Part shown: positions 79 through 63,285 of the stretch, one piece after another | How the letters are laid out: every line of letters starts with the position of its first letter | Numbering within the stretch: position 1 is the first letter of the stretch | IMG/VR virus record: IMGVR_UViG_3300023179_000020 | DNA length: 64,000 nt | Strand: one strand, 5' to 3' | From: a virus | Made by a program: the position numbers and the translations under genes | Notes under the pieces: model-generated | What the model was told of the DNA's origin: nothing | Seen by the model: only the letters and a program-made list of their open reading frames with translations | Databases searched by the model: none

Positions 79-729
79 ATGCAAGTAGAAAAATTACGTA
101 CTCTTATAAGAGAATCTATCAACGAATATATTAGAGAAATTGAACAAGCAGCTAATGAAGCAGCTGTAGATGCTAGTATCACTAAATGTGAAGAAGCAAT
201 CCAATCACGTCAAGAAAGACTAAATAAGATTAATGAAAATGATGATCTTAAAGAAATGGTTGATGAAACTAAAGTAAAAAATATTCAAGCCGAAATTAAA
301 ATTTTAGAGAAAGCTAAGAAAAAATACGCTGCTCAAAAAGCTAAAATGCAAGCTAAAAAGGATAAAAAAGCAAATCCTGAAAAAGAAGTAACTACTGATG
401 CTCCTATTGATGAAGCTGATGTAACAGCTGAAATGAACATGCCTGACAATACACAAGAAGAAGCATTAAACGAATCTTTTATTCGTATGCAAAAACTTGC
501 AGGTATTATTAATGAAAATAAAAGTAAAATAGAAACAATTTTGAGTAAAATAGGTGATATTGAAGAAAAAATATATGATCAATATGGTGACGATGAAATA
601 GAAGCTAAATTTGATTATAGTAAAGCTATAGATGATATTAAATCAAAATATAAAAATGACGAAAGTGGAATGTATGATGCTTTAATATCTCATTTAAAAA
701 AACTAAAATCAACATTCCCAATAAAATAA
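79..729 (+). CDS. Hypothetical, probable internal head protein (N-terminal LRTLIRESINE tag, coiled coil, internal ALNESFIRMQKLAGIINE motif plus C-terminal module)
   Basis: 216-aa ORF behind ATATTTATA (48-56); shares MQKLAG motif with the scaffold C-terminus. Confidence 0.55.
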   Translation: MQVEKLRTLIRESINEYIREIEQAANEAAVDASITKCEEAIQSRQERLNKINENDDLKEMVDETKVKNIQAEIKILEKAKKKYAAQKAKMQAKKDKKANPEKEVTTDAPIDEADVTAEMNMPDNTQEEALNESFIRMQKLAGIINENKSKIETILSKIGDIEEKIYDQYGDDEIEAKFDYSKAIDDIKSKYKNDESGMYDALISHLKKLKSTFPIK

Positions 730-825
730 AATAAGGTACTAGAAAAGAATTTGAAAATAAATTCAATCTAAATGGTGGGAGACTTAGTCAACTAATTAAT
801 AATAAAATATTAAAATAAACATATA

Positions 826-904
826 GACCGATTCATAGCCGGTCGCTCTAAACAGAGACAAAAATATGGTAGCTGTGGCACTCCTAAAAAGGTGCCACTT
901 TTTT
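826..904 (+). ncRNA. Candidate structured RNA (H-type pseudoknot) overlapping an intrinsic terminator
   Basis: GACCG(826-830)/CGGTC(840-844) stem; loop TCATAGC(833-839) complementary to GCTGTGG(872-878); CTCT/AGAG hairpin; GC-rich island in an AT-rich intergenic region. Confidence 0.45.
875..904 (+). terminator. Rho-independent terminator
   Basis: GTGGCAC...GTGCCAC stem followed by T-run. Confidence 0.75.
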
Positions 905-905
905 G

Positions 906-936
906 TTTGTTTTTTAAATAAAATTTATTATCTTTA
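906..936 (+). promoter_or_regulatory. Putative host-RNAP early/middle promoter
   Basis: TTTG(906-909)-N19-TATCTTTA; same layout at 3705, 52844 and 54695. Confidence 0.45.
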
Positions 937-3203: not shown

Positions 3204-3683
3204 ATGAACAAAGAGTTCCTTAAAATGCAAAAAATGGCTGGTATTATTACTGAAGGTCAATACCAAGAAAAATTAAATAAGACTCAAACTCCTTCTCCCA
3301 ACGAATGTCAGCGTATTATAGAGTTATATATAGACAGTCATGATGCTGAATATGTCGCTGGTTTCTTTGATGACACCCACAAAAGAGAAGTAGCAGCATA
3401 TTTGAAATCACTTAAACCATACCCTAAAGTAAGAACAGTAGAAGAACTAGCATCTACTATTAAAGAAATAGATGACAAAATAAATGAAATTACAAACTAC
3501 CCAGAAGATCTTTTTGATGAAGAAGTAATACCTCGATTAGAACAAATAGCTTCTAATAATCCTAATCTAAAAAACGCGGTAGATAAAGTATTAGTTGTAT
3601 TAAATGAACTATATGGTAGAAATAATGATGAAGATGATGAAGATGATGAGTTTGGTTGGAAGACTGATTATGATGAATTCTAA
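3204..3683 (+). CDS. Hypothetical, probable packaged head protein (MQKMAGIITE tag)
   Basis: 159 aa; ATATTTATA 3163-3171; N-terminus matches scaffold C-terminal motif. Confidence 0.55.
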   Translation: MNKEFLKMQKMAGIITEGQYQEKLNKTQTPSPNECQRIIELYIDSHDAEYVAGFFDDTHKREVAAYLKSLKPYPKVRTVEELASTIKEIDDKINEITNYPEDLFDEEVIPRLEQIASNNPNLKNAVDKVLVVLNELYGRNNDEDDEDDEFGWKTDYDEF

Positions 3684-4298: not shown

Positions 4299-5084
4299 AT
4301 GAAACTATCTGAATTAAGAAAACAAATAGAAGATACTATTACGGAGATATTAACTATTACTCCCGGATCTAACGCTATGGATGTAAAAAATGCGGCTAGA
4401 CAAAAAGGAGTACCACAAGCTGCGGTAACCTCAGCATTACAACAAGCTAATACCTCTGGACAATCAGTGACATTAACTGGAAAAGTAGCTGAATCAGACG
4501 AAGACGTAGAAGATACTTATGGTAAAGAAGATGAAGATGATAAAAAAGATGCTAAAATAGCTAACGCTAAGCCATCAAAATCAGATTTGAAAAAAAATGC
4601 TAGTATAGCTACTATAACAGATGCTATAGCTAAATTAGTTATAGATCGTAAAAATGTTAATGAAAAATATAAGAAAGCCGAAGGTAAAGAAAAAGCAAAG
4701 TTGTTAGATGAATTAAAAGACCTAACATCTAAAATACAATCATTAGATAAAATTCTTAAAGAAAAAGAGAAAACTCTTAAAGAAAATAATTTAAAAACCA
4801 AAACTATGAAAAAATCACAATTGCAACAAATCATTAAAGAAGAAATTCAAAAAATTTTAAAAGAAGCAAAAGAAATTAAAGTTGATATATACAGTGCTGA
4901 GACTATAACTTTAAATGGAAAACCCCTAGACTCAGACAAAATGAATAGCACTAAATATAGAAATATGCTTTTATCACAACCTGATAAAGCATTTATGTAT
5001 AAAGGAAAACCCGTCTCTCTTGACGCTATTGATCCAGCTGATGGTTCACAAGATGATCCAAAAATTTATTTAAGAGCTGATTAA
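4299..5084 (+). CDS. Hypothetical head-associated protein; apparent in-frame fusion with a second tagged unit starting at 4806
   Basis: MKLSELRKQIEDTITE N-terminus and internal MKKSQLQQIIKEEIQKILKE. Confidence 0.55.
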   Translation: MKLSELRKQIEDTITEILTITPGSNAMDVKNAARQKGVPQAAVTSALQQANTSGQSVTLTGKVAESDEDVEDTYGKEDEDDKKDAKIANAKPSKSDLKKNASIATITDAIAKLVIDRKNVNEKYKKAEGKEKAKLLDELKDLTSKIQSLDKILKEKEKTLKENNLKTKTMKKSQLQQIIKEEIQKILKEAKEIKVDIYSAETITLNGKPLDSDKMNSTKYRNMLLSQPDKAFMYKGKPVSLDAIDPADGSQDDPKIYLRAD

Positions 5085-8649: not shown

Positions 8650-9504
8650 ATGGTAATTAAACATTCAAAGTACAAAAATACTGGGATCCTTTTTGAACTA
8701 CTTGTTAGACAAATTACAGCTGATACTTTATCAGGTGATGCTTCCCCAGCTACTACCATTTTAAAAAAATACTTTACTAAAACTGAATTAGGAAGAGAGT
8801 ATAAGTTGTATGAAAGCTTTTTTAAGCATACTAATATTAGTGAGGCTAAAGCTGATATGGTTATAACAACTCTTGTTGAAAGTTCAAAGTATTTAAACCG
8901 TTCTATACTAAAAAGACAAAAATATAATTTGATTAAAGAGATTAAGGCGCATTACAATTTAGAAGAGTTTTTTAAAACTAAACTTCCTAATTATAAAGCA
9001 CAAGCCGCTTTATTTACTCTTTTAGAAGTGTATAACAGTGAAAACTTATCCAACCCAAATCAAATTATAGAAAATAAAACCGCGCTTTTAGAATTTTTAA
9101 CTAAAGGACCTATTAACAAAACAGAAGTTAAAAACAATATTTTAGAAGAATTTAAACATCAAGATAAAGATATTCGTGTTTTAGCATATAGAGTACTACT
9201 TGAAAAATTTAATGACAAATACTCAAATTTAAATTCAAACCAAAAAATCATATTAAAAGAATTTATAAACAGTGTTGATAATACTCCCAAATTAAAAGAA
9301 TTTTACAACACTAAAGTATTTGAAATTAAAACCCAATTATCAGTACTTAACAAATCAGTTTCTAACCCTGCCACTAAAATAAAAATCAACGAAGTAATAA
9401 ATATTTTACCTGTTTTAAGCAAAAACGACAGAATTAATGATGACCAATTAGTAAATCTTTTACAATACTGTGAATTGATAGAAGAATTAAAAATTGTAAA
9501 ATGA
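8650..9504 (+). CDS. Helical head-module protein (putative prohead core component)
   Basis: 284 aa between portal and protease; ATATTTATA 8622-8630. Confidence 0.5.
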   Translation: MVIKHSKYKNTGILFELLVRQITADTLSGDASPATTILKKYFTKTELGREYKLYESFFKHTNISEAKADMVITTLVESSKYLNRSILKRQKYNLIKEIKAHYNLEEFFKTKLPNYKAQAALFTLLEVYNSENLSNPNQIIENKTALLEFLTKGPINKTEVKNNILEEFKHQDKDIRVLAYRVLLEKFNDKYSNLNSNQKIILKEFINSVDNTPKLKEFYNTKVFEIKTQLSVLNKSVSNPATKIKINEVINILPVLSKNDRINDDQLVNLLQYCELIEELKIVK

Positions 9505-10004
9505 ATAAAAAAGACCAAATACGTGAATTAATTCAAAAGCGTTTAAAAGAAATAAGCGCTACAGGCACTGGTGCTTCTTTTACTGCTGGTACTGGTGCTA
9601 ATTATGCTACACCTAATGCTTTTAATCCAAATAAAAAGGCTAAAGGTGCTAAAAACATTTATTATTACAAATTAGGATTCAAACCAGTAAACCAAAAAGC
9701 TTTAAATAAAAAGGCTAAAGGCATTGAAGTAAAACATTTGTGGGAAGAAGAAACACCTAAATTTGACATTGAAGGATTTGTAAGTGCTTTACAAACTGAT
9801 AATGAAGAATTAAAAAAATACATAGCAGGACGTTTAGGAGACTTTGATTTACTTGCTAGCAAATTAAAAGAACTTATTGAATTAATACAAGAAGCTAAAA
9901 AAGAAACAATAAACAGTTACAGAGAAAATCCTGAATTTAAAGCTGTTTATGGTACAGATTTAGCAATTTCATTAATAGACGACACTATAAAACTATTTAC
10001 ATAA
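9501..10004 (+). CDS. Hypothetical head-module protein
   Basis: IRELIQKRLKE N-terminal tag, YATPNAF motif. Confidence 0.5.
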   Translation: MNKKDQIRELIQKRLKEISATGTGASFTAGTGANYATPNAFNPNKKAKGAKNIYYYKLGFKPVNQKALNKKAKGIEVKHLWEEETPKFDIEGFVSALQTDNEELKKYIAGRLGDFDLLASKLKELIELIQEAKKETINSYRENPEFKAVYGTDLAISLIDDTIKLFT

Positions 10005-10005
10005 A

Positions 10006-11271
10006 ATGAGAAATACATTACAAGAACAATATAACCTTATTAAAGAAGGTAAAGGTAATAAACAGCAATTTTTTAAATCTGCTCGTCATTTATTCCCTAA
10101 TTTAATTACTCCTGTTAACACATTAAATGATGCTGTTACCATCCTTAAAAACAAAGGTATCATTAGTGAAATGTTTGTAGGAGGAGGTGTAGTTACTAAA
10201 GGTAAAACACCTGATTGGTTTTCTATTTTTAAAGAAAACATAACTGAGTATGGAGAAGACTCAGGTGGACAAGATATGACATACGGAATGTATAATAGAT
10301 CATCAGCCCGTAAAAATCAAGGCATTCAAGACTTTATAAATAAAGGAAAAGAAGATTATTATGATGATGTACCATATGAAGCATGTCCATATGAAGATGG
10401 TTATAATAAATATTATAAAGCAGATTTAGCTAAATTATGGCAAATGGGATGGAAAGAAGCAGAAATATCAAGCAATGAAGAAAACATAACTGAATTATCA
10501 GGAAAATTTGGTTCTAAAGAAGAAGTTACCGTTATTAATAATAAAACTGGTAAAAAAGCTAAAGCAATGATTACCAGCACATCAATGAGTACAGGTACAG
10601 GAATAGAATATAATCTTAAATATTCTGGTGAAAAACCAAATGGATTCCCAGACACTATAAAAGATGATGATTTAGACTCAACATATTCTTTAAAAAGATT
10701 AACTGAAGCTAAAGAAGCTAAAGCTGAAGAAAAAGAAACTACTAAAGAAGTAACTGACATGGCAACACGTGGTTACGACTATAAAGACACTAAAAACATT
10801 GATAACATTTTTGGTACTGCGTTTTTAAAAGGATTCTATAGTGAAATGCAAGATCCAAAAAACGAGGACAAAACAGTTGAAGAATTAAAACAAATCGTAG
10901 CTAAAAATTTAGCTAAAGACTGTTTACACTATGTTAAAAACAGCCCATTTGGTGTTGAAGGAGCTGGTTATTCAGTAGAAGCACCTGGATTAGGCGAACC
11001 AAAACCTGCTAAAGGTAAACACAAATCTTCAGGTTATGGTGATTTAAAAGAATCAGTTTTACGTTCTCAAATTCATTTGTTAGTAAAAGAAGTATTAGCT
11101 GAAAGTAAAATTAGTGAAGATCAATTTGAAAAAGCACTTAAAATGCATAAAAAAGGCAAATCACCCGAAAACATAGCTAAAGAATTAAAAATTGATCCGG
11201 TTATATTAAAAAACCAACTAAAAAAATACAAAGAAGAAAAAGAAAATTTAAAAACAAGTGATAAGGGCTAA
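10006..11271 (+). CDS. Modular head/core protein with many [LIV]-x-E sites and an RMF-like internal module
   Basis: 421 aa; repeated ENITE; CPY...W..GW.EA segment. Confidence 0.55.
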   Translation: MRNTLQEQYNLIKEGKGNKQQFFKSARHLFPNLITPVNTLNDAVTILKNKGIISEMFVGGGVVTKGKTPDWFSIFKENITEYGEDSGGQDMTYGMYNRSSARKNQGIQDFINKGKEDYYDDVPYEACPYEDGYNKYYKADLAKLWQMGWKEAEISSNEENITELSGKFGSKEEVTVINNKTGKKAKAMITSTSMSTGTGIEYNLKYSGEKPNGFPDTIKDDDLDSTYSLKRLTEAKEAKAEEKETTKEVTDMATRGYDYKDTKNIDNIFGTAFLKGFYSEMQDPKNEDKTVEELKQIVAKNLAKDCLHYVKNSPFGVEGAGYSVEAPGLGEPKPAKGKHKSSGYGDLKESVLRSQIHLLVKEVLAESKISEDQFEKALKMHKKGKSPENIAKELKIDPVILKNQLKKYKEEKENLKTSDKG

Positions 11272-11273: not shown

Positions 11274-11882
11274 ATGAAACAAGTACTTATTGAAACCCAA
11301 ATATTTTCTGCTAAACCAGTTAAACTAGTTGAAGGTAAAGGTGGTAATAGCAATTTATTAGTTGAAGGAATACTAGCAACAGCCGAAGTAAAAAACGGTA
11401 ACGGCCGTTACTACTCAAAAGATTTATGGGAAAGAGAAATTAATAAGTACATGGAGAATGTAAAATCAAATCGTGCTTTAGGTGAACTAGACCATCCCGA
11501 TTCTCAAATCATCAATTTAAAAAACGTATCCCACAACATTAAAAAAATATGGTGGGATAATGATAATGTAATGGGAGCAATAGAAATTTTACCTACACCT
11601 TCAGGCAACATATTAGCAGCATTATTCCAAAACAACATTCCAGTAGGTGTATCATCACGTGGTATGGGCTCATTAAAACAAATGGGAGAAATAATGGAAG
11701 TACAAGACGATTTTGAATTGTTGTGTTTTGACTTTGTTTCTACCCCATCTAACCCAGGATCATTCATGCACCCAGTAGGACAAATACATGAAGGATTATC
11801 ATCTCCGATTAACCCATATTCTAAAGTTAATTCAATAGTAACTGAGATTCTTTGCGCAAACGGAACCTGTCCAATTTTTTAA
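11274..11882 (+). CDS. Prohead protease (T4 gp21-like)
   Basis: NGNGRYY, ALGELDHP, GVSSRGMGS, FDFVSTPS motifs. Confidence 0.93.
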   Translation: MKQVLIETQIFSAKPVKLVEGKGGNSNLLVEGILATAEVKNGNGRYYSKDLWEREINKYMENVKSNRALGELDHPDSQIINLKNVSHNIKKIWWDNDNVMGAIEILPTPSGNILAALFQNNIPVGVSSRGMGSLKQMGEIMEVQDDFELLCFDFVSTPSNPGSFMHPVGQIHEGLSSPINPYSKVNSIVTEILCANGTCPIF

Positions 11883-12609: not shown

Positions 12610-12783
12610 ATGGAAAAACAAGAATTAAACGAAGAATTTTTTAAAATGCAAAAACTTGCAGGTTTAATTACTGAAGAAGAATATAAAGCTAGATTATGGT
12701 ATAAACAATATTCTGAAAATATATCTAAAGCCTTAGATGATTTAAAACAAACATTAAAAAATGAAGGCTATGATATTAAATGA
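12610..12783 (+). CDS. 57-aa tagged protein absent from the ORF track (MEKQELNEEFFKMQKLAGLITEEEYKARLWY...)
   Basis: Translated by hand; ATATTTATA 12598-12606; carries MQKLAG tag. Confidence 0.7.
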   Translation: MEKQELNEEFFKMQKLAGLITEEEYKARLWYKQYSENISKALDDLKQTLKNEGYDIK

Positions 12784-13214: not shown

Positions 13215-14324
13215 ATGAACAGAGAAATGCTTAAAGAAGCAATTGCTGAAGCTAAAACTATTAGAGAAACAGCAATTGAAAGCGCAAAAATCGCCCTTGA
13301 AGAAGCTTTTACTCCCCAATTAACAGCTATGTTTGCTGAAAAGTTAAACGAGTTGGAATTAGAGGAAAAAGAAGAAAAGGACGAAACAAATGAAATGTAC
13401 GGTATGGAAGAAGAAGGATTAGAAGAAAATTTTAATCTTGAAGAACTTCTTGCCGAGTTAGAGGAAGCTGAATTACAAGCTGAAGCAGAAGACATGAAAA
13501 CAGAAAATCTTGATGAAGATTTAATGCTTGAAGAAATGTCTGACGAGGAAATTGAAGAACTTGTAAAATCAGTAATCGACGACATGATTGCATCTGGTAA
13601 GCTTATGGCTGGTGAAGAAGCCGAAGACGAGGACATGGACATGGATGACATGGACATGGATGATATGGACATGGGTGACGAGGAAGAAATTGAAGACGAA
13701 GAAGAAGAAGAAATTGATGAAGACATCAATCTTGAAGAACTTCTTGCTGAAATTGATTCTGAGAAAAAAGAAGTAGTAAACGAAGAATTTTTTGATCCTG
13801 AAACTTTAAAATTAGTAGCTCAAGCTGCTGAATTTCTTAATGTAAGTAAAGATGCTATAATGGGAATGATAGCAGGATTACCTGGAGCAGCAGTTGCTGC
13901 TGCGTTTTTAAGAGCTACAATGAAAGCTAAAAAAGAAGCAAAAAGTGGAAAAGTTGATGAAACAACTGATACTACTGAAATGGAAGAAACAATTAACGAG
14001 TTGAGAAATGAGTTAAACGAAGTAAACCTTTTAAATGCTAAACTTCTTTATACCAACAAAATCTTCAAAGCTAAGAATCTTACCGAATCAGAAAAAATTA
14101 AGGTTTTAAACACATTTGACAAAGCAGAAACTGTTAAAGAAGTTAAACTCGTATTTGAAACTCTAACTGAATCTTTTAAAACTACTACAGTTAAAAAGAA
14201 CCCAATTAAAGAATCATTAGGATCAGCTTCTAGAACAATTGCCCCTGCTACCCCTAAACAACCAATAATCGAGGTTAACAGCGCGTTTGCTCGTATGCAA
14301 CAACTCGCAGGCCTCAAAAAGTAA
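13215..14324 (+). CDS. Prohead scaffold/core protein (T4 gp22 position)
   Basis: Highly acidic coiled coil immediately before the MCP; many [LI]-x-E sites; ends RMQQLAGLKK. Confidence 0.85.
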   Translation: MNREMLKEAIAEAKTIRETAIESAKIALEEAFTPQLTAMFAEKLNELELEEKEEKDETNEMYGMEEEGLEENFNLEELLAELEEAELQAEAEDMKTENLDEDLMLEEMSDEEIEELVKSVIDDMIASGKLMAGEEAEDEDMDMDDMDMDDMDMGDEEEIEDEEEEEIDEDINLEELLAEIDSEKKEVVNEEFFDPETLKLVAQAAEFLNVSKDAIMGMIAGLPGAAVAAAFLRATMKAKKEAKSGKVDETTDTTEMEETINELRNELNEVNLLNAKLLYTNKIFKAKNLTESEKIKVLNTFDKAETVKEVKLVFETLTESFKTTTVKKNPIKESLGSASRTIAPATPKQPIIEVNSAFARMQQLAGLKK

Positions 14325-14362: not shown

Positions 14363-16096
14363 ATGGAAACAATTCAACAATTAGTAGAGTCCGCAAACCC
14401 ATGGAGATCACTTCAAAGTGATGCTGCTAAATTAGCACGCAAATGGGAAAAAACCGGCCTTTTAGAAGGTCTTGGTGAGGACGTTAACAAAAACAACATG
14501 GCTTTGATGTTGGAAAACCAAGCAAAGCAATTAGTAGTAGAAACATCTCAAACTGGTACTGGTGCTACTTTTACAGTAGGTACTGGTGAACAATGGGCTG
14601 GTATTGCACTTCCTTTAGTACGTAAGGTATTTGGTCAAATCGCAGCGAAAGAATTCGTTAGCGTTCAACCAATGAACTTACCTTCAGGTCTTGTATTCTT
14701 CCTTGACTTTCAGTATGGTACTGCTAAGAACCCATTTACTTCAGGTGGTTCTATGTATGGTACTCGTAATGCAAGTGGTCAGTATCCATTTGCTACACCT
14801 GATCCTGTTGGTGGTTTGTATGGTGCTGGTCGTTTTACTTACTCTACTAACCAATTCTCAGCTTCTGTATGGGTATCAGGTTCGTCAGCAGGTGGAACTA
14901 CTCCAGTATTAGCAGCTAGTACGGGTTCAGTAGTTACAGCTTCTTGGGCTGAATTAAACTACGATACTGCTCTTTCAGCTTCTGTAAAAGCTAATGGTAT
15001 CTATAAAGTAACTGTTACTACTGCTTCATTATTAACTAATTTTGATCCTGATGCAGTTCGTGCATTCTATGTTAGTGGTGGTGGATTTACTGTAGCTAAT
15101 GCTTTACCAGCATTTACAACTTACAATTATACTAATAATACTATTGCATTTTTCATTACTGGTACTGCTACAGCGTTTTCTGGTGCCCCTGCAGCTCAAT
15201 TAACTGTATTCTATCAAAAGAACACAGCTGATAATAAGCGTGGTGATTTTGAAGATCCAACAGGTGCTACATTACCTACTTACTCAACACCAAACGATCA
15301 AAATGCTACTACAATTTCTATCCCAGAAATTAACATCTCGATGCAATCTCAAGCTATTACTGCTAAGACTAAAAAGTTAAAGGCTGTATGGACTCCTGAA
15401 TTTGCTCAAGACCTTAATGCTTACCAGAACTTAGATGCTGAAGCTGAATTAACTAACATCATGAGCGAGTACATTTCATTAGAAATTGATCTCGAAATTC
15501 TTGATATGTTGATCGAAGATGTTCCTCAAGCTAACACTGAGTATTGGACTGTATTGAATAATGGTGTTTATAATAGCACAAATCCTAATGGATTTGATTT
15601 CCCAACATCAACCAATAACAGTGGATTCTATAACACTCAAGGTCAGTGGTTCCAAACCCTTGGTACTAAAATTCAAAAGATTAGCAACCGAATTCACCAA
15701 TTAACCCTTCGTGGTGGTGCTAACTTTATGGTAATCAGCCCAACTATTGCAACTATTATCGAGTCTATTCCTGGATTCGCTTCTAATAGCAATGGTGATG
15801 CTGCTGACATGGATTATGCATTTGGTGTACAGAAAGCTGGTCAATTCAACAGCCGTTACACTGTGTATAAGAACCCTTACATGACTGAAAACACTATCTT
15901 ATTAGGTTTCCGTGGTAAGCAATTCTTAGAAGCAGGTGCTGTGTTTGCTCCTTACATTCCATTGATCATGACTCCTCTTATCTACGATCCAAACACCTTC
16001 ACTCCACGTAAAGGTCTGTTGACTCGTTATGCTAAGAAGATGTTACGTCCTGAATTCTATGGTAAAGTTTATGTTAGTGGTTTAAGTTCCCTCTAA
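14363..16096 (+). CDS. Major capsid protein (T4 gp23-like)
   Basis: VSVQPMNLPSGLVFFLDF, KLKAVWTPEFAQDL, APYIPL, FTPRKGLLTRYA motifs. Confidence 0.96.
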   Translation: METIQQLVESANPWRSLQSDAAKLARKWEKTGLLEGLGEDVNKNNMALMLENQAKQLVVETSQTGTGATFTVGTGEQWAGIALPLVRKVFGQIAAKEFVSVQPMNLPSGLVFFLDFQYGTAKNPFTSGGSMYGTRNASGQYPFATPDPVGGLYGAGRFTYSTNQFSASVWVSGSSAGGTTPVLAASTGSVVTASWAELNYDTALSASVKANGIYKVTVTTASLLTNFDPDAVRAFYVSGGGFTVANALPAFTTYNYTNNTIAFFITGTATAFSGAPAAQLTVFYQKNTADNKRGDFEDPTGATLPTYSTPNDQNATTISIPEINISMQSQAITAKTKKLKAVWTPEFAQDLNAYQNLDAEAELTNIMSEYISLEIDLEILDMLIEDVPQANTEYWTVLNNGVYNSTNPNGFDFPTSTNNSGFYNTQGQWFQTLGTKIQKISNRIHQLTLRGGANFMVISPTIATIIESIPGFASNSNGDAADMDYAFGVQKAGQFNSRYTVYKNPYMTENTILLGFRGKQFLEAGAVFAPYIPLIMTPLIYDPNTFTPRKGLLTRYAKKMLRPEFYGKVYVSGLSSL

Positions 16097-30061: not shown

Positions 30062-30070
30062 AAAGTTGTT

Positions 30071-32323: not shown

Positions 32324-32335
32324 AAAATAAAATAT

Positions 32336-33771: not shown

Positions 33772-33780
33772 ATTAATTTT

Positions 33781-35193: not shown

Positions 35194-35201
35194 TAAAAAA
35201 C

Positions 35202-54617: not shown

Positions 54618-54694
54618 TATTTATAATAGACACAACGGTGTCAATTTAGGTTAGAACAAGTTAAGGAAAACACTACAAGAAAAAGGCAGTATAA

Positions 54695-54726
54695 TTTGGC
54701 CGTATTAAAAAAAAGTAGTATATTAA
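54695..54726 (+). promoter_or_regulatory. Putative early/middle promoter
   Basis: TTTGG(54695)...TATATT(54719). Confidence 0.55.
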
Positions 54727-54753
54727 TAATAACAATTTAAAAACCAACGTTTT

Positions 54754-55602: not shown

Positions 55603-55621
55603 TTTTTAACCAAAACAGATT

Positions 55622-56707: not shown

Positions 56708-56708
56708 C

Positions 56709-57752
56709 ATGGACAAAAAAGAACTGTTTAACCTATTAAACAGTATTGAACCAGGCAATGAACCTAAAAAAGCAACATTTAATAAACATGATAGAGTTCT
56801 TATCATTGATGGTTTAAATTTGTTTTTAAGAAACTTTGCTGTTATAAACCATGTTAACAAAGATGGAGTACACGTTGGTGGTTTAGGAGGATTCTTACGT
56901 TCGTTAAGTTTTCTTATAAACCACAACACTCCAACTTCTGTGTACATTGTATTTGATGGAGTTGGTTCTACTATAAACAGGAAGAACCTTCTCCCCGAAT
57001 ACAAATCTGGTCGTAATCTTTCTAGGGTTAATCGAAGTACTACGTTTGATAATTTAGAAGAAGAAAATGAATCTAAAATTAATCAAATTTCAAGACTAAT
57101 ACATTATTTAAGGTGTTTACCCATTAAACTTATTGTACTCGATAAAATTGAGGCAGACGACATTATAGCTTATTTATCCCACTATTTAACCACTAATCAC
57201 AACAGTAAATGCACTATAGTGTCTGCGGATAAGGACTTTTTACAACTAGTAAATGATAATATTACTGTTTACAGTCCTATGATTAAAGAACACTTTACTC
57301 CAAAATTAATAAAAGAAAAATTTGGCCTTCCTGCTAAAAATTTTATATTGTATAAGACACTTATGGGAGACAATTCAGATAAAGTACCAGGATTAAAAGG
57401 TTTAGGCCCTAAAAAGCTATTTAAATTTTTCCCTGAATTGCAAAACAATGAAATGTCATTAGAGGATTTGTATAACATTTGTGAGACTAAGTATAAAGAA
57501 AACATAATATACTCTAGACTAATATATGATTATGAAACGTTACAAAAACATTATAAATTAATGGATTTGAGTAACCCATTAGTAGACGAAAGTGAGAAAA
57601 AAATTATAGAAGAATCAACATCTGTTTCACCAAACAAATTAAAAACCTCAGAATTTTTAAAAATGTATAATGAAGACGGATTAGGACACACTATAAAAAA
57701 TATAGAATTTTGGATTAGAGACACATTTACAACATTAAGTAGTTTTAAATAA
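56709..57752 (+). CDS. 5'-3' exonuclease/flap endonuclease (T4 RNase H-like)
   Basis: IIDGLN, YKSGR, EADDII, SADKDFLQL, GDNSDKVPGLKGLGPK. Confidence 0.92.
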   Translation: MDKKELFNLLNSIEPGNEPKKATFNKHDRVLIIDGLNLFLRNFAVINHVNKDGVHVGGLGGFLRSLSFLINHNTPTSVYIVFDGVGSTINRKNLLPEYKSGRNLSRVNRSTTFDNLEEENESKINQISRLIHYLRCLPIKLIVLDKIEADDIIAYLSHYLTTNHNSKCTIVSADKDFLQLVNDNITVYSPMIKEHFTPKLIKEKFGLPAKNFILYKTLMGDNSDKVPGLKGLGPKKLFKFFPELQNNEMSLEDLYNICETKYKENIIYSRLIYDYETLQKHYKLMDLSNPLVDESEKKIIEESTSVSPNKLKTSEFLKMYNEDGLGHTIKNIEFWIRDTFTTLSSFK

Positions 57753-57763
57753 ATAAAAGGTAT

Positions 57764-59131
57764 ATGGCAGCATTAAGTACCCTGTCCCAATATGGAACAC
57801 ACTTCCAGATTAAAGTATTGTCTTCTTTATTAACACATAAAGAATTTTTAACTAACATACACGACATATTAAGTGAAGAATACTTCGACAACAGTGCACA
57901 TCGCTGGATTATTAAAGAAATTCTTAACTATTATGACAAGTACCACACTTGTCCTAGCATGGAAGTGTTAAAAGTAGAAGTTAAAAAACTAGAAAACGAA
58001 GTATTACAAATTTCAGTTAAAGAACAACTTAAAGAAGCATATAAAGCATCAGACGATGATTTAGCATATGTAGAAGAAGAATTCTCTAATTTTTGTAAAA
58101 ACCAACAGCTTAAAAAAGCATTACTCACATCTGTAGACTTGTTAAAAGCAGGTGACTATGATTCGATTAGAGGATTAGTTGACAATGCTTTAAAAGCAGG
58201 CGGTGATAAAAACATAGGTTTAGAATACGATAAAGACATTGAAACCAGATACAGAGAAGAACATAGAATTACTATACCTACACCTTGGGCATTGTTTAAC
58301 AACATAATGCAAGGTGGTTTAGGAAATGGAGACTTTGGACTAATATTTGGTAATCCAGGTGGTGGTAAATCATGGACATTAATTGCTTTAGGAGGCACAG
58401 CGGTTCAGATGGGTTTTAATGTTATTCATTATACTCTTGAATTAGGAGAAGATTATGTTGGTAGACGATATGATGCTTTTTTTACTGGTGTACCTGTAAA
58501 TGAAATTATGAAATTCAAACCTAGAGTAGAAGACACTATTACTCAATTGTCAGGTAAATTAGTTGTTAAAGAATACTCACCTGGTAAAGCATCTATTTCA
58601 ACACTAGAAGCACACGTTCAAAAATGTATAGATCAAGGCTTTAAACCAGATTTGATCATTATTGACTACGTAGATCTTCTTCGTTCTAAAAAAACAAATC
58701 GTGAAAGGAAAGACGAAATAGATGATATTTATGTAAGCACAAAAGGATTGGCTCGTGAATTAAAAATTCCAATTTGGAGTGTTTCACAGGTTAATCGTGC
58801 TGGAGCAAAAGATGACATAATTGAGGGTGACAAAGCCGCAGGTAGCTATGACAAAATCATGATTACAGATGTGGCTATTTCTCTCTCACGTAAAAAAGAA
58901 GATAAAGTGAAAGGAACAGGACGTTTTCATATAATGAAAAATAGATACGGCATAGATGGTTTAACATTTGGAGCTAAAATTGACACATCTACAGGTCATA
59001 TGGAAATTTTTGACAATTATGATGACGACCCAGACCAATATACTCCTTCAAAACCAGTCAATAGTTTTAGTGATGTTACCTCTTTAGACAGAGATCTTCT
59101 TCAACAAAAGTTTTTTGAATTAAACAAATAA
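57764..59131 (+). CDS. DnaB-like replicative helicase
   Basis: GNPGGGKS, YTLEL, IIIDYVDLL, SQVNR, KNRYG. Confidence 0.9.
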   Translation: MAALSTLSQYGTHFQIKVLSSLLTHKEFLTNIHDILSEEYFDNSAHRWIIKEILNYYDKYHTCPSMEVLKVEVKKLENEVLQISVKEQLKEAYKASDDDLAYVEEEFSNFCKNQQLKKALLTSVDLLKAGDYDSIRGLVDNALKAGGDKNIGLEYDKDIETRYREEHRITIPTPWALFNNIMQGGLGNGDFGLIFGNPGGGKSWTLIALGGTAVQMGFNVIHYTLELGEDYVGRRYDAFFTGVPVNEIMKFKPRVEDTITQLSGKLVVKEYSPGKASISTLEAHVQKCIDQGFKPDLIIIDYVDLLRSKKTNRERKDEIDDIYVSTKGLARELKIPIWSVSQVNRAGAKDDIIEGDKAAGSYDKIMITDVAISLSRKKEDKVKGTGRFHIMKNRYGIDGLTFGAKIDTSTGHMEIFDNYDDDPDQYTPSKPVNSFSDVTSLDRDLLQQKFFELNK

Positions 59132-59134
59132 TTT

Positions 59135-59683
59135 ATGAGAGCGTTAAATGTAATAGCTTTAGAAATATATCAACAACTAAATATTAAGTACTCTAATTTA
59201 ACAGAGCGTAGAGAAGCTACTAAACAATACATTTTAAATGAAATTACTCAATGGGAAATAAAAACCTTAGAACAAGAAAATAACTATTTTTTTAAACCTA
59301 AAGAATTTATAGGAGATAAAAATAGTCCACCATTTGAGGTTAGATTATTAAAAAGTAAAGCAGTAGAAGGATACCATGAATTGAAATTTGGAAATCTTAA
59401 CGCTGAAACAGATGAAGAAAAATTTAAATGGGATGACAAAGATCCTTATAAATTACAAAAGGCTTTATTTTTACGAAATGTATTAGATAAAAAAATTAAA
59501 TCTTTATTTGAAACCGGAGAAATTAAAGGTATTATGTTTCAACCATATAATGGAGACGGGTTAGCAGATGATAGGTATAGTTATTTTTATAACATGTATT
59601 CTAAATTAGGAAAAGATAAATATGATTTAGATAAAGGTGAATTTGAAGCAGAAGGTACATATTTTATAACCCCGAAAATTTAA
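59135..59683 (+). CDS. Hypothetical protein with leader ending YILNE
   Basis: 182 aa between helicase and nrdB. Confidence 0.55.
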   Translation: MRALNVIALEIYQQLNIKYSNLTERREATKQYILNEITQWEIKTLEQENNYFFKPKEFIGDKNSPPFEVRLLKSKAVEGYHELKFGNLNAETDEEKFKWDDKDPYKLQKALFLRNVLDKKIKSLFETGEIKGIMFQPYNGDGLADDRYSYFYNMYSKLGKDKYDLDKGEFEAEGTYFITPKI

Positions 59684-59691
59684 AAAATAAC

Positions 59692-60642
59692 ATGATTACT
59701 GACATAAGGAATTACTACAAACCATTCGAATACCAAACTGCATTTGATTTTTATAAAGACCAACATAGAGCACATTGGTTAGCAGATGAAGTTCCACTCG
59801 CATCAGATTTGAACGATTGGAAATTAAAATTAACAGAACCCGAAAAGAATTTAATTGGAAACATATTAAAGTCATTTGCTCAAACAGAAGTCCATGTTAA
59901 CGATTATTGGTCAACAAAAGTATCAATTTGGTTTCCGAAACCCGAAATCCAAGCTATGGCTCGTGTATTTGCTGATTTTGAAAGCATCCACGCTGAGGCT
60001 TATGCTCGATTAAATGAAGAATTAGGCTTAGACAATTTTAAAGCATTTTTAGAAGACGAAGCATCTAAAGCTAAAATTGAACGCTTGATTGAAACACCAG
60101 GCGAAACAATAGAAGATAAAGCAGTATCATTAGCCATATTCTCAGCATTTACTGAAGGTGTAAATTTATTTTCTTCATTTGCTGTATTAATGAGTTTCCA
60201 ACTAAGAAACTTAATGAAAGGTACTGGTCAAGTAGTAGAGTGGAGTGTTAGAGATGAATCATTACATTCAAAAGCAGGTTGCTGGTTATTCAGAACACTA
60301 CTTGAAGAACAACCAGAACTAAACACTGACGAATTAAGAGAAAAAATTATCGAAGCATGTCACCTATCAGTACAATTAGAATTTGATTTTATTGATAAAG
60401 CATTTGAAATGGGTGATATTGAAGGTTTAAATAAAGAACAACTTAAAAACTTTATTAAAGCCCGTGCCAATGAGAAAATGATTGAATTAGGTTACAAAGC
60501 AATTTATAATGACATTGACCCTAACCTTTTAAAACAAATTGAATGGTTTGGACATTTAACATCAGGTAAAACACAACAGGATTTCTTTGCTGGAAGAGTG
60601 ACTGCGTATGCTAAGTCTACAGCAGATTGGGATGATTTATAA
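59692..60642 (+). CDS. nrdB: Ribonucleotide reductase class I beta subunit
   Basis: FAQTE, ESIHAEAY, EGVNLFSSF, RDESLH, DFF motifs. Confidence 0.95.
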   Translation: MITDIRNYYKPFEYQTAFDFYKDQHRAHWLADEVPLASDLNDWKLKLTEPEKNLIGNILKSFAQTEVHVNDYWSTKVSIWFPKPEIQAMARVFADFESIHAEAYARLNEELGLDNFKAFLEDEASKAKIERLIETPGETIEDKAVSLAIFSAFTEGVNLFSSFAVLMSFQLRNLMKGTGQVVEWSVRDESLHSKAGCWLFRTLLEEQPELNTDELREKIIEACHLSVQLEFDFIDKAFEMGDIEGLNKEQLKNFIKARANEKMIELGYKAIYNDIDPNLLKQIEWFGHLTSGKTQQDFFAGRVTAYAKSTADWDDL

Positions 60643-60651
60643 TATTAAAAA

Positions 60652-62376
60652 ATGAGTATACAAGTAGATACAACAAATTGGATTAAGGGTAAAAATTACC
60701 CTGTATGGTTTGATGAAATAGGATTAAGTATGATTTCAAAAGGTTATTTATTACCTGATGAAGACGTATTTGATGCTTATAAAAGAGTAAGCAAGTTTGC
60801 TGCTCGTCGCTTACGCCGTAAGGATTTACAACCATTCTTTTATGAGGCAATGGTTAAAAACTGGTTATGCTTAGCATCACCCGTACTATCAAACATGGGC
60901 ACTGAACGTGGAATGCCAATTTCATGTTTTGGTATTGACGTAGGTGACAGTATTGAAGGCATTGCTGATGCTAATTCAGAACTAATGAGACTATCATCTC
61001 AAGGTGGAGGTGTTGGTATTGGTGTGTCTCGTATTAGGGGACGTGGTAAAGCCATTAAAGACAATGGAGTATCAGAAGGTGTTGTTCCATGGTGTAAAAT
61101 TTATGATTCTACAATTCTGGCAACCAATCAAGGCTCAGTTCGTAGAGGAGCGGCATCTGTTAACCTAAACATTAACCACCCAGACATTGAAGAGTTTTTA
61201 CAGATTCGTAGACCAAAAGGTGATGTTAACAGACAGTGTTTAAATCTTCATCAGTGTGTTGTTATTGATGATGAATTTATGAATAAAGTTGAAAATAAAG
61301 ACCCCAAATCATTAAAAATTTGGGGTGAAATTTTAAAAACACGTCTTGAAACAGGTGAACCTTACATTATGTTTGAGGATAATATAAACAATGCTAATCC
61401 TGAAGCGTATAAGAAAAACAATCTAAAAGTTTCAATGAGTAATATTTGTACTGAAATTGCTCTTTATACAGACGAATTACACTCATTTATTTGTTGTTTA
61501 TCATCATTAAACTTAGCAAGATGGGAAGAATGGAAAGATTATAAATTTGAAAATGAAATGACTTTACCTGAACTATCATGTTGGTTTTTAGAAGGTGTAT
61601 TACAAGAATTTATTGATAGAGCTAAAAACATTAAATTCATGGAAAACACAGTTCGATCCGCTACTAAAGGCAGAGCAATTGGAATTGGTGTTTTGGGTTG
61701 GCATACATTTTTACAACAAAAAGGATTACCATTTGTAGGCATTCAAGCAAATTCTTACACAAGAATAATGTTTGAATTTATTGAACAAGAAGCATTAAAA
61801 GCATCTCGTGCTCAAGCTGAATTGTATGGGGAACCAGAATGGTGTAAAGGTACAGGTTTAAGACACACCCATCATTTAGCACCTGCACCTACAGTGTCAA
61901 ATGCTCACATTTCAGGAGGTGTATCACCTTCAATCGAACCTATTCCTGCTAATGTTTATAACCTTAAAACAGCAAAAGGCGTATTTATTAAGCGTAATAA
62001 AATTCTAGAAGAATTGCTTACCAAAAAAGGATACAACATTGATAGTGTTTGGGACCAAATTCTAAAAGACCAAGGTTCAGTTTTAGGATTACCTGATTAC
62101 ATTTTAACAAATGAAGAAAAAGAAATATTTTTAACTTTTAAAGAAATTAATCAGTTAGAAATTGTTAAACAAAATGGCATTAGACAAAAATACGTTGACC
62201 AAGCAATTTCATTAAACTTAACATTTGACCCAAATGACTCACCAAAATGGATTAGTCAGGTACATAAAGAAGCACATAAACAAGGAATTAAAACATTGTA
62301 TTACTTACGCACTGAAAGTGTTTTAAGAGGAGACAATTTACAACGTTTATCAGATTGTGTGAGTTGTGAGGGTTAA
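60652..62376 (+). CDS. nrdA: Ribonucleotide reductase class I alpha subunit (no ATP cone)
   Basis: ISCF, SNICTEI, CCLSS, APTVS, TLYYLR, C-terminal CVSC. Confidence 0.95.
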   Translation: MSIQVDTTNWIKGKNYPVWFDEIGLSMISKGYLLPDEDVFDAYKRVSKFAARRLRRKDLQPFFYEAMVKNWLCLASPVLSNMGTERGMPISCFGIDVGDSIEGIADANSELMRLSSQGGGVGIGVSRIRGRGKAIKDNGVSEGVVPWCKIYDSTILATNQGSVRRGAASVNLNINHPDIEEFLQIRRPKGDVNRQCLNLHQCVVIDDEFMNKVENKDPKSLKIWGEILKTRLETGEPYIMFEDNINNANPEAYKKNNLKVSMSNICTEIALYTDELHSFICCLSSLNLARWEEWKDYKFENEMTLPELSCWFLEGVLQEFIDRAKNIKFMENTVRSATKGRAIGIGVLGWHTFLQQKGLPFVGIQANSYTRIMFEFIEQEALKASRAQAELYGEPEWCKGTGLRHTHHLAPAPTVSNAHISGGVSPSIEPIPANVYNLKTAKGVFIKRNKILEELLTKKGYNIDSVWDQILKDQGSVLGLPDYILTNEEKEIFLTFKEINQLEIVKQNGIRQKYVDQAISLNLTFDPNDSPKWISQVHKEAHKQGIKTLYYLRTESVLRGDNLQRLSDCVSCEG

Positions 62377-62397
62377 AAATATTTATTACAAAACAGC

Positions 62398-63285
62398 ATG
62401 AAGAGATCTCAATTAAAACAAATCATTAAAGAAGAAATACGAAACGTATTAAATGAACGACAAGTGTTTTACTCTGATGATTCTAAAATAGACCCAAGAT
62501 TTATTAAGCAAACTACATATGGAGAACCTACTGGAAATATTTTATTCAAAATAAACACCATTCCTTCAGAATTAACTCCAACCCAAAATCAACAAATCCA
62601 AAAAGAAATTTTTATAAAACATTTTGGAAAAATGGATCCAATGTATTCTAAATTGTTTTTTACTAATAAAGACAAATGGTCGTCTACTTTTCCTTCATCT
62701 AAAAATTATAATTTTAAATATTTAATTAATTTCAATAAAGATGGAAGCATAACTATTGGAGAATTAAAATCAACTCCAATTAATCAACCTCAATCTAATA
62801 ACCCGGATACAGTTGTTTTACCTTTTAACATATATTATGTTCAAAGTGATAGTCAATTAAGAAATATAGGGTTAGATGAAGGTGTAAAAACCGAACCTGA
62901 ATTGATGTGGGTATTGTGGAATGAATATCAAAATATGCAGGGTTTTGAAAGAACAACCAAAAGTGGAGGAGATAAATACACTAATAAAATGCAAGATATA
63001 GGTGTTAATATGGACTTTGATGCAGATGCAGATAAAATGTTTTATGGGGAAACAATGCGTAATATATTAAATAATGTAGAAGTATATGTTTCTGAAGGAT
63101 CAATGGGTAAAAAAGAAAGTGAAGATAAAGACCCATACACTAATTTTATTTATGGAATATATTATGGTGAAGAAGGAGAAGATTTTAAATACTCAAAACA
63201 AGAAGCAGACAAATATCAGTACATGTTAACTGATGATGATAGTTTTAAAGACTTTGTAGAAACAATAAAGACTGCTTTATTATAA
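62398..63285 (+). CDS. Hypothetical tagged protein (MKRSQLKQIIKEEIRNVLNE)
   Basis: ATATTTATT 62379-62387; tag nearly identical to the one at 4806. Confidence 0.6.
   Translation: MKRSQLKQIIKEEIRNVLNERQVFYSDDSKIDPRFIKQTTYGEPTGNILFKINTIPSELTPTQNQQIQKEIFIKHFGKMDPMYSKLFFTNKDKWSSTFPSSKNYNFKYLINFNKDGSITIGELKSTPINQPQSNNPDTVVLPFNIYYVQSDSQLRNIGLDEGVKTEPELMWVLWNEYQNMQGFERTTKSGGDKYTNKMQDIGVNMDFDADADKMFYGETMRNILNNVEVYVSEGSMGKKESEDKDPYTNFIYGIYYGEEGEDFKYSKQEADKYQYMLTDDDSFKDFVETIKTALL

What the first reader, a model, noticed from the sequence alone, without database searches (positions are those of the whole stretch)
79..63285. Modular head-cargo system: scaffold-like tags plus protease sites on unrelated proteins
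Seen: the scaffold ends SAFARMQQLAGLKK. The same motif appears in unrelated proteins: NESFIRMQKLAGIINE (79-729), NKEFLKMQKMAGIITE (3204) and NEEFFKMQKLAGLITE (12610). A second helical tag recurs: MKKSQLQQIIKEEIQKILKE (4806), MKRSQLKQIIKEEIRNVLNE (62398), MKLSELRKQIEDTITE (4299), LRTLIRESINE (79), IRELIQKRLKE (9501) and LRSQIHLLVKEVLAE (10006 gene). Each tag ends in [LIV]-x-E and is followed by a different domain, and most of these genes have their own ATATTTAT element. Established: T4 gp21 cleaves after [LI]-x-E, and T4 internal proteins use a cleaved N-terminal capsid-targeting sequence. Inference: this phage uses two portable address tags, one copied from the scaffold's putative capsid-binding tail, to load variable effectors into the head for release and injection.
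Basis: partly seen in the sequence, partly recalled or inferred. Interest (0 to 1): 0.9.

Follow-up and report, generated by a model that had tools for sequence, protein, structure and literature searches.

The report
Scaffold-tail address tags on phage proteins
This uncultured T4-like water phage puts the last 16 residues of its head-scaffold protein, followed by a head-protease cutting site, on several unrelated small proteins, most likely to load them into the empty head; over 1,400 protein families in related phages carry the same tag, but no experiment has tested it.

Summary
The main observation holds. The motif F-x-[KR]-M-Q-K-L-A-G-[ILV] occurs four times in the window. One copy is the extreme C-terminus of the gp22-like scaffold; the other three are on unrelated small proteins (genes 79, 3204 and 12610). 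In about 55 related phages the scaffold ends in this tail. On non-scaffold carriers the motif is followed by I-T-E in 181 of 185 cases, which fits the [LI]-x-E site of the T4 gp21-type (S77) protease encoded at 11274.

A profile of the tag finds 1,429 protein clusters. Most carry it at the N-terminus; the attached proteins are small, acidic and have no known family.

The second tag is only half supported. Gene 62398 and two sites in gene 4299 match a leader family common in relatives. The sites in genes 79, 9501 and 10006 score at chance level, as does the terminase N-terminus.

ATATTTAT is a general late-gene element that precedes all five stand-alone tagged genes.

Best reading: clip-off prohead-loading tags, a new variant of the T4 capsid-targeting principle. 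Packaging, cleavage and injection are all untested. This scan has reported the same tag system before, on other genomes and on this one.

The parts
13215..14324 (+). gp22-like scaffold protein (369 aa, very acidic), between the protease and the major capsid protein
   Evidence: Synteny with T4 and phage immuto. Homologous scaffolds occur in about 55 related loci. [LI]-x-E sites are enriched 1.6-fold.
14262..14321 (+). Scaffold C-terminal tail: P-I-I-E site followed by the 16-residue terminal peptide carrying the F-x-R-M-Q-x-L-A-G-L motif
   Evidence: The tail is conserved at the extreme C-terminus in relatives as distant as RM378 and Mel-JY01. A [LIV]-x-E site precedes it in 62 of 65 scaffolds, at a fixed distance in 58.
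3204..3683 (+). Tag-1 carrier: leader at residues 1-17 (nt 3204-3254), ending I-T-E, then a helical-bundle domain with an acidic tail
   Evidence: AF2 model pLDDT 80: helix 3-11, loop 12-16, helix 17-27. No fold or family match.
12610..12783 (+). Tag-1 carrier (57 aa) between the protease/HNH genes and the scaffold. Tag at residues 6-22 (nt 12625-12675), flanked by L-N-E and I-T-E
79..729 (+). Split-off prohead-core coiled-coil module (residues 1-98), disordered acidic linker, internal tag 1 (residues 130-146, nt 466-516), then a 70-residue C-terminal part
   Evidence: Family alignment A7. In relatives the N-domain is the C-terminal module of the 10006-type head protein. AF2 model is all-helical. 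Only the tag aligns to scaffolds.
4299..5084 (+). Two-module protein just upstream of the terminase gene. Tag-2 leader at residues 1-16 (nt 4299-4346) and a second tag-2 copy at residues 170-189 (nt 4806-4865)
   Evidence: Independent profile: 11 bits and 36 bits. Module A has orthologues upstream of the terminase gene in relatives, one of which is only 146 aa long.
62398..63285 (+). Tag-2 carrier next to the ribonucleotide reductase genes. Leader at residues 1-20 (nt 62398-62457), then a 275-residue orphan domain
   Evidence: 39 bits with a profile built from relatives only. Late-type element at 62379. No homologue, family or confident fold.
9501..10004 (+). Small head-module protein between portal and protease (the position of T4 gp67). 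Its N-terminal helix ends L-K-E but is not a demonstrable tag-2 member
   Evidence: Synteny. Profile score 0.6 bits. [LI]-x-E sites enriched, z 2.6.
10006..11271 (+). Conserved head-module protein (the position of T4 gp68). After its conserved N-domain comes a junction segment at residues 352-366 (nt 11059-11103), then a C-terminal module that differs between phages
   Evidence: Alignment A10. In relatives the junction carries other leader-like segments, followed by the gene-79-type coiled coil.
11274..11882 (+). Prohead protease, T4 gp21 family
   Evidence: Pfam Peptidase_S77 E 1.7e-30. PHROG head maturation protease E 1.2e-57. 34% identical to T4-like gp21.
14363..16096 (+). gp23-like major capsid protein, the presumed docking partner. 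V-V-E at residues 58-60 aligns with the T4 gp23 maturation site
48..55 (+). ATATTTAT late-promoter-like element upstream of gene 79. Equivalent copies lie at 3163, 4271, 12598 and 62379, upstream of the other tagged genes
   Evidence: 34 copies against 14.7 expected. 22 of 65 gene starts have one within 45 nt upstream, including 5 of 5 stand-alone tagged genes.

Best explanation
Tag 1 is a portable copy of the scaffold's C-terminal docking peptide: a short amphipathic helix, then Gly, then a hydrophobic hook. By analogy with other phages, the scaffold uses this tail to hold on to the inner face or N-arm of the gp23-like capsid protein while the prohead assembles. Any protein carrying the same peptide is co-assembled into the prohead. 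When the S77 (gp21-type) protease switches on, it cuts at the [LIV]-x-E sites that flank the peptide on whichever side a protein body is attached: P-I-x-E before the scaffold tail, I-T-E after N-terminal tags, and both L-N-E and I-T-E around internal tags. This frees the scaffold body for degradation and releases the attached protein inside the head. Tag 2 (M-K-[KR]-S-[QE]-L-x-x-I-I-K-E-E-I...L-x-E) is a separate N-terminal leader. It works like the T4 capsid-targeting sequence and probably addresses the scaffold core. Shown: the sequence anatomy, the conservation, the portability, the presence of the protease family, and the shared late-type upstream element. Inferred: binding to the capsid protein, cleavage, and the fate of the attached proteins. 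They may be retained and injected like T4 internal proteins, or expelled like core peptides.
For: Tail and tag are equivalent. Profile-profile alignment of the gene-79 family against scaffolds matches only the 16 tag columns to the last 16 scaffold residues (E 8e-6). The motif occurs only in these two contexts: 65 hits against 0 to 0.9 in controls. The tail is old and constrained: it is kept at the extreme C-terminus in about 55 relatives and in immuto, Mel-JY01, RM378 and LR756508, down to 35% capsid-protein identity. The tag is portable. 1,429 clusters at 50% identity carry it. Among 181 carriers there are 158 N-terminal, 23 internal and 4 C-terminal copies, the attached proteins fall into 81 unrelated groups, and I-T-E follows 181 of 185 copies. 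The copies differ at synonymous sites, so selection acts on the peptide. Protease logic: an S77 protease is present, the T4 gp23 cleavage site aligns with V-V-E in this capsid protein, and the scaffold tail is preceded by [LIV]-x-E in 62 of 65 scaffolds. [LI]-x-E sites are enriched in scaffolds (837 observed, 517 expected) but depleted in the tagged proteins (289 observed, 327 expected), while other window proteins show 214 observed and 157 expected. The AF2 model puts I-T-E in a loop between two helices. Co-occurrence: of 5 large contigs chosen by tag alone, 4 encode this scaffold, and each of the five contigs holds 1-5 carriers. Tag 2 has 6 strong N-terminal copies in one complete relative and 3-4 in immuto, on unrelated proteins. 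All five stand-alone tagged genes have the late-type element (hypergeometric P about 0.003, own arithmetic). The T4 precedent for a cleavable capsid-targeting leader is described in PMC9026906 and PMC9958956. The precedent for a second protein sharing the scaffold's C-terminal capsid-binding helix-and-hook is in PMC5644958.
Against: No proteomic, structural or genetic data exist for this phage or any relative. The partner of the tail is unknown. Variable positions of tag and tail do not co-vary within genomes: for example, scaffolds with W or F where tags have M, and M-Q-M-L-S-G tags beside an F-Q-K-L-A-G scaffold tail. The tagged proteins are mostly very acidic (median net charge -9), unlike known basic internal proteins and awkward next to packed DNA. 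T4 and cyanophage scaffolds lack this tail. Mel-JY01, RM378 and LR756508 have the tail but no detectable carriers. The site-depletion test is indirect. Three of the six proposed tag-2 sites are at chance level.
Confidence: 0.6

Rival explanations
1. The tag does dock to the prohead, but the carriers are not cargo for delivery. They are expendable accessory core or scaffold proteins, or decoys that modulate head assembly or compete for capsid protein (for example against co-infecting relatives). They are then degraded and expelled like T4 gp22, gp67 and gp68.
For: Carriers are acidic like the scaffold and like T4 gp67. Some carriers end right after the tag, exactly as a scaffold does, and large proteins carry the tail at both ends. 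Gene 79 is a piece of a conserved core protein and is rich in [LI]-x-E sites. SaPI1 CpmB is a precedent for a second protein using the scaffold's tail to redirect assembly (PMC5644958).
Against: The tagged proteins as a class are depleted in [LI]-x-E sites, whereas scaffolds are strongly enriched. At least 81 unrelated groups of attached protein, with folded domains, are hard to explain by a filler or assembly role. The near-invariant I-T-E release site is unnecessary for a protein that is simply degraded.
Confidence: 0.2
2. The shared peptide binds a partner other than the capsid protein, such as the prohead protease (a substrate-docking motif), the portal or a chaperone. Scaffold and carriers would then share a processing or recruitment signal rather than a capsid address.
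For: On every carrier the motif sits directly beside a predicted cleavage site. T4 gp21 is said to have very few cleavage determinants, and how proteins localise to the core is described as unresolved (PMC9026906, PMC9958956). Tag and tail do not co-vary.
Against: In scaffolds the motif is the free C-terminal end, the position used for capsid-protein binding in 80alpha, P22 and others (PMC5644958, PMC9546572). A protease-docking motif would still place the carriers in the prohead, so this rival changes the partner, not the outcome.
Confidence: 0.12
3. The leaders have no targeting role. They are conserved gene starts spread by recombination, serving as cassette junctions or translation-initiation regions, and the likeness to the scaffold end is coincidental.
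For: Leader-bearing genes cluster in variable regions, and many begin with nearly the same 26 residues.
Against: Copies differ at synonymous sites. The tag also occurs internally and at C-termini. The match to the scaffold tail is statistically supported, and the motif is absent elsewhere.
Confidence: 0.05

Closest known systems
Phage T4 capsid-targeting sequence (CTS) on internal proteins IPI-III and Alt, removed by gp21 (Mullaney and Black 1996; reviewed in PMC9026906 and PMC9958956)
   Same: A short leader on otherwise unrelated proteins, ending at an [LI]-x-E site of a gp21-family protease. The leader-bearing gene set varies between related phages. Tag 2 has the same position, length class and M-K...I-x-E style.
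   Different: Tag 1 is a different peptide that copies the scaffold's own C-terminal tail. It works at N-terminal, internal and C-terminal positions and sits on more than 1,400 protein clusters. The attached proteins are acidic rather than basic. Nothing here is experimentally shown.
Staphylococcal phage 80alpha scaffold and SaPI1 CpmB: a shared C-terminal helix-and-hook (R-I-I-K) that binds the capsid protein N-arm (PMC5644958)
   Same: A second, otherwise unrelated protein carries the scaffold's extreme C-terminal peptide and so occupies the same site. The motif has the same style: an amphipathic helix, then a short hydrophobic and basic hook at the very end (here ...L-A-G-I-I-K).
   Different: CpmB is a satellite's size-redirecting scaffold, not a cargo tag. 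It has one carrier rather than hundreds, no flanking release site, and no sequence homology to this tail.
Encapsulin cargo-loading peptides
   Same: A short terminal peptide on diverse cargo proteins docks to the inner face of an HK97-fold shell. It works like an address label.
   Different: Encapsulins have no scaffold, no protease release and no DNA. Their peptide is C-terminal and unrelated in sequence.
Phage P1 DarB N-terminal capsid-targeting signal (PMC9024508)
   Same: An N-terminal segment is sufficient to load a protein into a myovirus head, and the loaded proteins are anti-restriction proteins.
   Different: It is a single large protein loaded in a stepwise Dar pathway. The signal is not shared with a scaffold (P1 has no separate scaffold).

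Membership tests
T4-type CTS / internal-protein system | A gp21-family (Peptidase S77) prohead protease encoded in the head module | tested here: met
   Gene 11274-11882: Pfam PF03420 E 1.7e-30, PHROG 207 E 1.2e-57.
T4-type CTS / internal-protein system | A short leader shared by unrelated proteins and ending in [LI]-x-E | tested here: met
   Tag 1: I-T-E follows 181 of 185 copies, and the attached proteins fall into 81 groups. Tag 2: genes 62398 and 4299, plus 6 copies in one relative.
T4-type CTS / internal-protein system | The leader is sufficient for packaging and is removed by the protease in the prohead | not testable with these tools
   No virion proteome or genetics exists for any relative.
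T4-type CTS / internal-protein system | The loaded proteins are small basic DNA-associated proteins | tested here: not met
   Tag-1 proteins have a median net charge of -9; 66% are at -5 or below and 3% at +5 or above.
T4-type CTS / internal-protein system | Sequence similarity of the leader to the T4 CTS itself | not tested
   No T4 internal-protein sequence was fetched, so the resemblance of tag 2 is from memory only.
gp22-type prohead scaffold (for gene 13215) | An acidic helical protein encoded between the gp21 protease and the gp23 capsid protein, rich in protease sites | tested here: met
   Gene order. [LI]-x-E 22 observed against 12 expected in this protein, and 837 against 517 in 50 homologues.
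gp22-type prohead scaffold (for gene 13215) | Detectable sequence-family membership | tested here: inconclusive
   No Pfam or PHROG hit. Only the N-terminal L-K-E-x-I-A-E-A segment resembles T4 gp22 by eye.
Scaffold-tail mimic of the 80alpha SP / CpmB kind | A non-scaffold protein shares the scaffold's extreme C-terminal peptide | tested here: met
   hhalign E 8e-6, aligned to the scaffold's last residues. Some carriers end with the tail.
Scaffold-tail mimic of the 80alpha SP / CpmB kind | The peptide forms a helix plus hook and binds the capsid protein N-arm | tested here: inconclusive
   AF2 gives helix 3-11 then a non-helical A-G-I-I-T stretch. Binding could not be modelled, because the fold tool takes single chains only.

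The most novel reading that the evidence does not exclude
A large clade of aquatic T4-like phages uses its scaffold's capsid-docking tail as a natural, encapsulin-like loading peptide. With it, the phages pack a fast-changing arsenal of small acidic proteins (candidate DNA mimics or anti-defence factors) into the head, release them with the prohead protease, and inject them with the DNA. If so, the tag would be a sequence-only marker for injected proteins in uncultured phages.
Probability: 0.3. Interest if true: 0.9.

Novelty: new variant of a known kind. Interest (0 to 1): 0.72.

Why it matters
Reviews of T4 head assembly still describe as unresolved how T4-type heads choose which proteins go inside (PMC9958956). 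This system offers a concrete, testable answer for a large clade: proteins borrow the scaffold's own docking peptide and are released by the head protease. If that is right, a 16-residue motif identifies virion-delivered proteins directly from metagenomic sequence. More than 1,400 families carry it, almost all of unknown function. Such a list would be a rich source of candidate early-acting anti-defence proteins. The tag would also be a natural loading label for packaging foreign proteins into phage heads. A cultured relative, Flavobacterium phage immuto, carries the system, so the idea can be tested at the bench.

Tried and rejected
1. Co-variation between tag and tail. Phages whose tags read M-Q-M-L-S-G still have F-Q-K-L-A-G scaffold tails, and several tag variants coexist in one genome. 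This gives no support, and it is no refutation either, because the invariant core is shared.
2. Gene 79 as a scaffold paralogue. It is not one: only the tag aligns. Its N-domain is instead a module of the 10006-type head protein.
3. Tag 2 as a copy of the scaffold N-terminus. The tag-2 profile gives no N-terminal hit on the scaffold, so this was dropped.
4. Function of the tagged proteins. Pfam on 137 carriers found almost nothing (3 x DUF6576). Foldseek of the gene 3204 model against PDB and BFVD gave no match. The ESM Atlas gave nothing for gene 62398.
5. Long carriers by word search: none found. The profile search did find a few (874 aa; 806 and 927 aa open frames).
6. Word search for tag 2 with gene 62398 returned only the protein itself.
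7. The motif string was not found in 8 million papers, and no virion proteome was found for immuto, Mel-JY01 or RM378.
No whole genome is held for this window.
Full report
WHAT THE WINDOW IS
All 65 credible genes lie on the + strand, and G+C is about 31%. The major capsid protein (14363-16096) is 53% identical to that of Flavobacterium phage vB_FspM_immuto. It is more distantly related to Microcystis phage Mel-JY01, Rhodothermus phage RM378 and T4-type gp23. No DNA-level match exists among deposited phages, and no whole genome is held for the window.

The head module runs in this order:
- terminase 5123
- portal 6722
- genes 8650, 9501 and 10006
- protease 11274
- HNH endonuclease 11933
- gene 12610
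- gene 12761 (85 aa, uncharacterised)
- scaffold 13215
- capsid protein 14363

This is the T4 order gp20, gp67/68 position, gp21, gp22, gp23. The protease belongs to the T4 gp21 family: Pfam Peptidase_S77 E 1.7e-30 and PHROG head maturation protease E 1.2e-57. The T4 gp23 maturation site (L-T-E) aligns with V-V-E at residues 58-60 of this capsid protein.

TAG 1: THE OBSERVATION
The motif F-x-[KR]-M-Q-[KQ]-[LM]-A-G-[IL] occurs exactly four times in six-frame translation, always in a coding + frame:
- the last 16 residues of the scaffold
- residues 1-17 of gene 3204
- residues 6-22 of gene 12610
- residues 130-146 of gene 79

I fetched 80 related IMG/VR loci with the capsid protein (58-80% identity). 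In about 55 of them the gene upstream of the capsid gene ends in R-[MWF]-Q-x-[LI]-A-G-[IL] plus one to six residues and a stop.

A loose pattern for the core gives 65 hits in 2.54 million translated residues. It gives none in reversed strings and 0.9 on average in shuffled ORFs. The hits listed (64 of the 65) are all scaffold ends or non-scaffold carriers.

The tail persists in immuto, in Mel-JY01 (R-M-K-K-L-A-G-I-V-K), in RM378 (R-I-K-R-L-A-G-L) and, with G replaced by D, in LR756508. T4 and cyanophage gp22 end differently.

A profile-profile comparison of the gene-79 family (A7) against 14 scaffolds (A8) aligns only the 16 tag columns, and it places them on the scaffold's last residues (E 8e-6). 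The in-window copies differ at synonymous positions, so the peptide itself is what is conserved, not a recently copied piece of DNA.

TAG 1: PORTABILITY
A 32-column profile built from 11 tags from the window and relatives was run against 1.84 billion representative proteins. It finds 1,429 clusters at E <= 1e-3 and 73 at E <= 1e-10. I examined 181 of these carriers:
- 185 tag copies: 158 N-terminal, 23 internal and 4 C-terminal.
- I-T-E follows the motif in 181 copies.
- With the tags masked, the attached proteins fall into 81 BLAST groups.
- Median length is 139 residues and median net charge is -9.

Pfam recognises almost nothing in 137 of them. Some proteins carry two tagged modules in series, a tandem tag, or a tag at both ends of an 874-residue protein. 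Some members of the gene-79 family stop right after the tag, as a scaffold does.

I then chose five large contigs by a DNA pattern for the tag alone. Four encode a homologous scaffold, including both contigs judged complete, and each of the five contigs holds 1-5 carriers. The same profile finds no carrier in Mel-JY01, RM378, LR756508, a T4-like coliphage or a cyanophage. The tail is therefore older than its reuse as a tag.

PROTEASE-SITE LOGIC
- In scaffolds, a [LIV]-x-E site precedes the tail in 62 of 65 cases, and in 58 of those at exactly the same distance (P-I-x-E, then 16 residues to the end).
- Internal tags are preceded by [LIVM]-N-E and followed by I-T-E.
- N-terminal tags have only the downstream site.

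So the peptide is bracketed by a gp21-type site wherever a protein body is attached to it.

I compared observed [LI]-x-E counts with shuffled expectation:
- 50 scaffolds: 837 observed, 517 expected (z +16.8)
- other window proteins: 214 observed, 157 expected
- tag-1 proteins with tags masked: 289 observed, 327 expected (z -2.6)

This fits scaffolds being built for degradation and the tagged proteins being built to survive. It is indirect evidence only.

The AF2 model of gene 3204 (pLDDT 80) shows a helix at 3-11, a non-helical A-G-I-I-T stretch at 12-16, a second helix at 17-27, a helical bundle, and a disordered acidic tail. The presumed cut site therefore lies in an exposed loop. The helix-plus-hook shape recalls the 80alpha scaffold tail.

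TAG 2
Within the window, only gene 62398 and the internal copy in gene 4299 are clearly alike: Smith-Waterman score 66 against a 99.9th-percentile null of 34. A leader profile searched on whole related genomes finds 6 strong N-terminal copies in one complete 163-kb relative and 3-4 in immuto. All sit on unrelated proteins.

A profile rebuilt from relatives only, used as an independent test on the window's proteins, gives:
- gene 62398 residues 1-21: 39 bits
- gene 4299 residues 170-191: 36 bits
- gene 4299 residues 1-19: 11 bits (E 7e-4)
- gene 79: 3.9 bits
- gene 9501: 0.6 bits
- gene 10006: nothing at the cited site
- terminase N-terminus: 4.3 bits
- best shuffled sequence: 5.1 bits

Tag 2 is therefore real, but it has three demonstrable copies in this window rather than six. 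The '4806' item is residue 170 of ORF 4299-5084, so that protein is a two-module chain. One orthologue in a relative stops after module A. [LI]-x-E within the first 25 residues is common, occurring in 26 of 65 proteins, so it cannot define a tag on its own.

GENES 79 AND 10006
The N-domain of gene 79 is a conserved coiled coil. In many relatives it forms the C-terminal module of the 10006-type head protein encoded between portal and protease. In this window that module is a separate gene, with tag 1 and a 70-residue extension added.

The 10006 family has a conserved N-domain followed by a junction segment and then a module that differs between phages. This fits a polyprotein-like core protein. 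Genes 79, 4299, 9501 and 10006 are all rich in [LI]-x-E sites, like scaffolds.

THE ATATTTAT ELEMENT
There are 34 copies against 14.7 expected. Twenty-two of 65 gene starts have one 12-41 nt upstream. These include the portal, sheath, tube and baseplate genes and all five stand-alone tagged genes. No gene start in the replication block 52889-62376 has one within 45 nt upstream; the only intergenic copy there lies 137 nt upstream of gene 54754. The element precedes gene 62398, which lies next to the reductase genes. About half of the tagged genes in relatives also have it. It behaves as a late-promoter-like element: it is not specific to tagged genes, but it places them with the structural genes.

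INTERPRETATION
The best reading (confidence 0.6) is that these are clip-off prohead-loading tags. Tag 1 reuses the scaffold's docking tail, and tag 2 works like the T4 CTS. The principle is known: CTS leaders cut by gp21 on a variable set of internal proteins (PMC9026906, PMC9958956). A second protein sharing the scaffold's capsid-binding C-terminal helix-and-hook is known from SaPI1 CpmB (PMC5644958). Scaffold contacts with the capsid protein N-arm are general (PMC9546572).

What is new is the identity and origin of the tag, its independence of position, its bracketing by protease sites, its scale, and the acidic character of the attached proteins. I found no paper containing the motif and no virion proteome for any relative.

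The main weaknesses are the complete lack of experimental data, the unknown binding partner, the absence of tag-tail co-variation, and acidic proteins that might be expendable core parts rather than injected effectors.

EARLIER REPORTS FROM THIS SCAN
This scan has reported the same scaffold-tail tag on several other genomes, and leader systems on other windows of this genome. My tests were made independently and agree with those reports.

Noticed in passing
window 28887-36275: A four-gene tail-fibre cassette is duplicated in tandem: genes 28887, 29915, 30071 and 31217 against 32600, 33598, 33781 and about 35200. The pairs are 37-51% identical. All four large genes have Gly-rich C-termini ending in a shared I-x-E-[FY]-[FY] motif. 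ORF 35070 overlaps gene 33781 by 124 nt, and its real start is probably near residue 45.
   Followed up: partly
window 19045-21246 and 24980-26599: Two large fibre-like proteins share a repeated region about 41% identical over more than 500 residues (E 2.6e-86).
   Followed up: partly
window 10006-11271, residues about 80-235: This 10006-type head protein has an insertion of about 150 residues in its conserved N-domain that five IMG/VR relatives lack (in phage immuto the region aligns only in small part). It coincides with the 'RMF-like module' noted by another reader.
   Followed up: partly
window 40782 and 46739: Two baseplate-region or tail-region proteins, of 796 and 91 aa, begin with the same M-G-L-L-[ED]-[RK]-[FL]-L-N-x-G-S leader (Smith-Waterman score 39, above the 99.9th-percentile null).
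   Followed up: no
window 43207-44203: ORF 43874-44203 overlaps the end of ORF 43207-43935 by 62 nt in another frame, just upstream of an 819-aa tape-measure-like gene. This may be a chaperone frameshift pair, but the frame offset is +1 rather than the usual -1.
   Followed up: no
window 2263, 11933, 22469, 39296: Homing-endonuclease-like genes (GIY-YIG and HNH types, judged by eye) are scattered through the structural region. Two of them (11933 and 39296) have their own ATATTTAT element.
   Followed up: no
L065:5987-7027, L047:2884-3957, L052:6917-8023: In relatives, the junction of the 10006-type head protein carries an internal M-I-[KS]-L-x-D-L-[LY]-x-E segment. This is the same leader type that another note reports at gene starts elsewhere in this genome.
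   Followed up: partly
L113 (Mel-JY01) 7149-7376: Microcystis phage Mel-JY01 has a gene annotated as ribosomal protein S21 inside its head module, between protease and scaffold.
   Followed up: no
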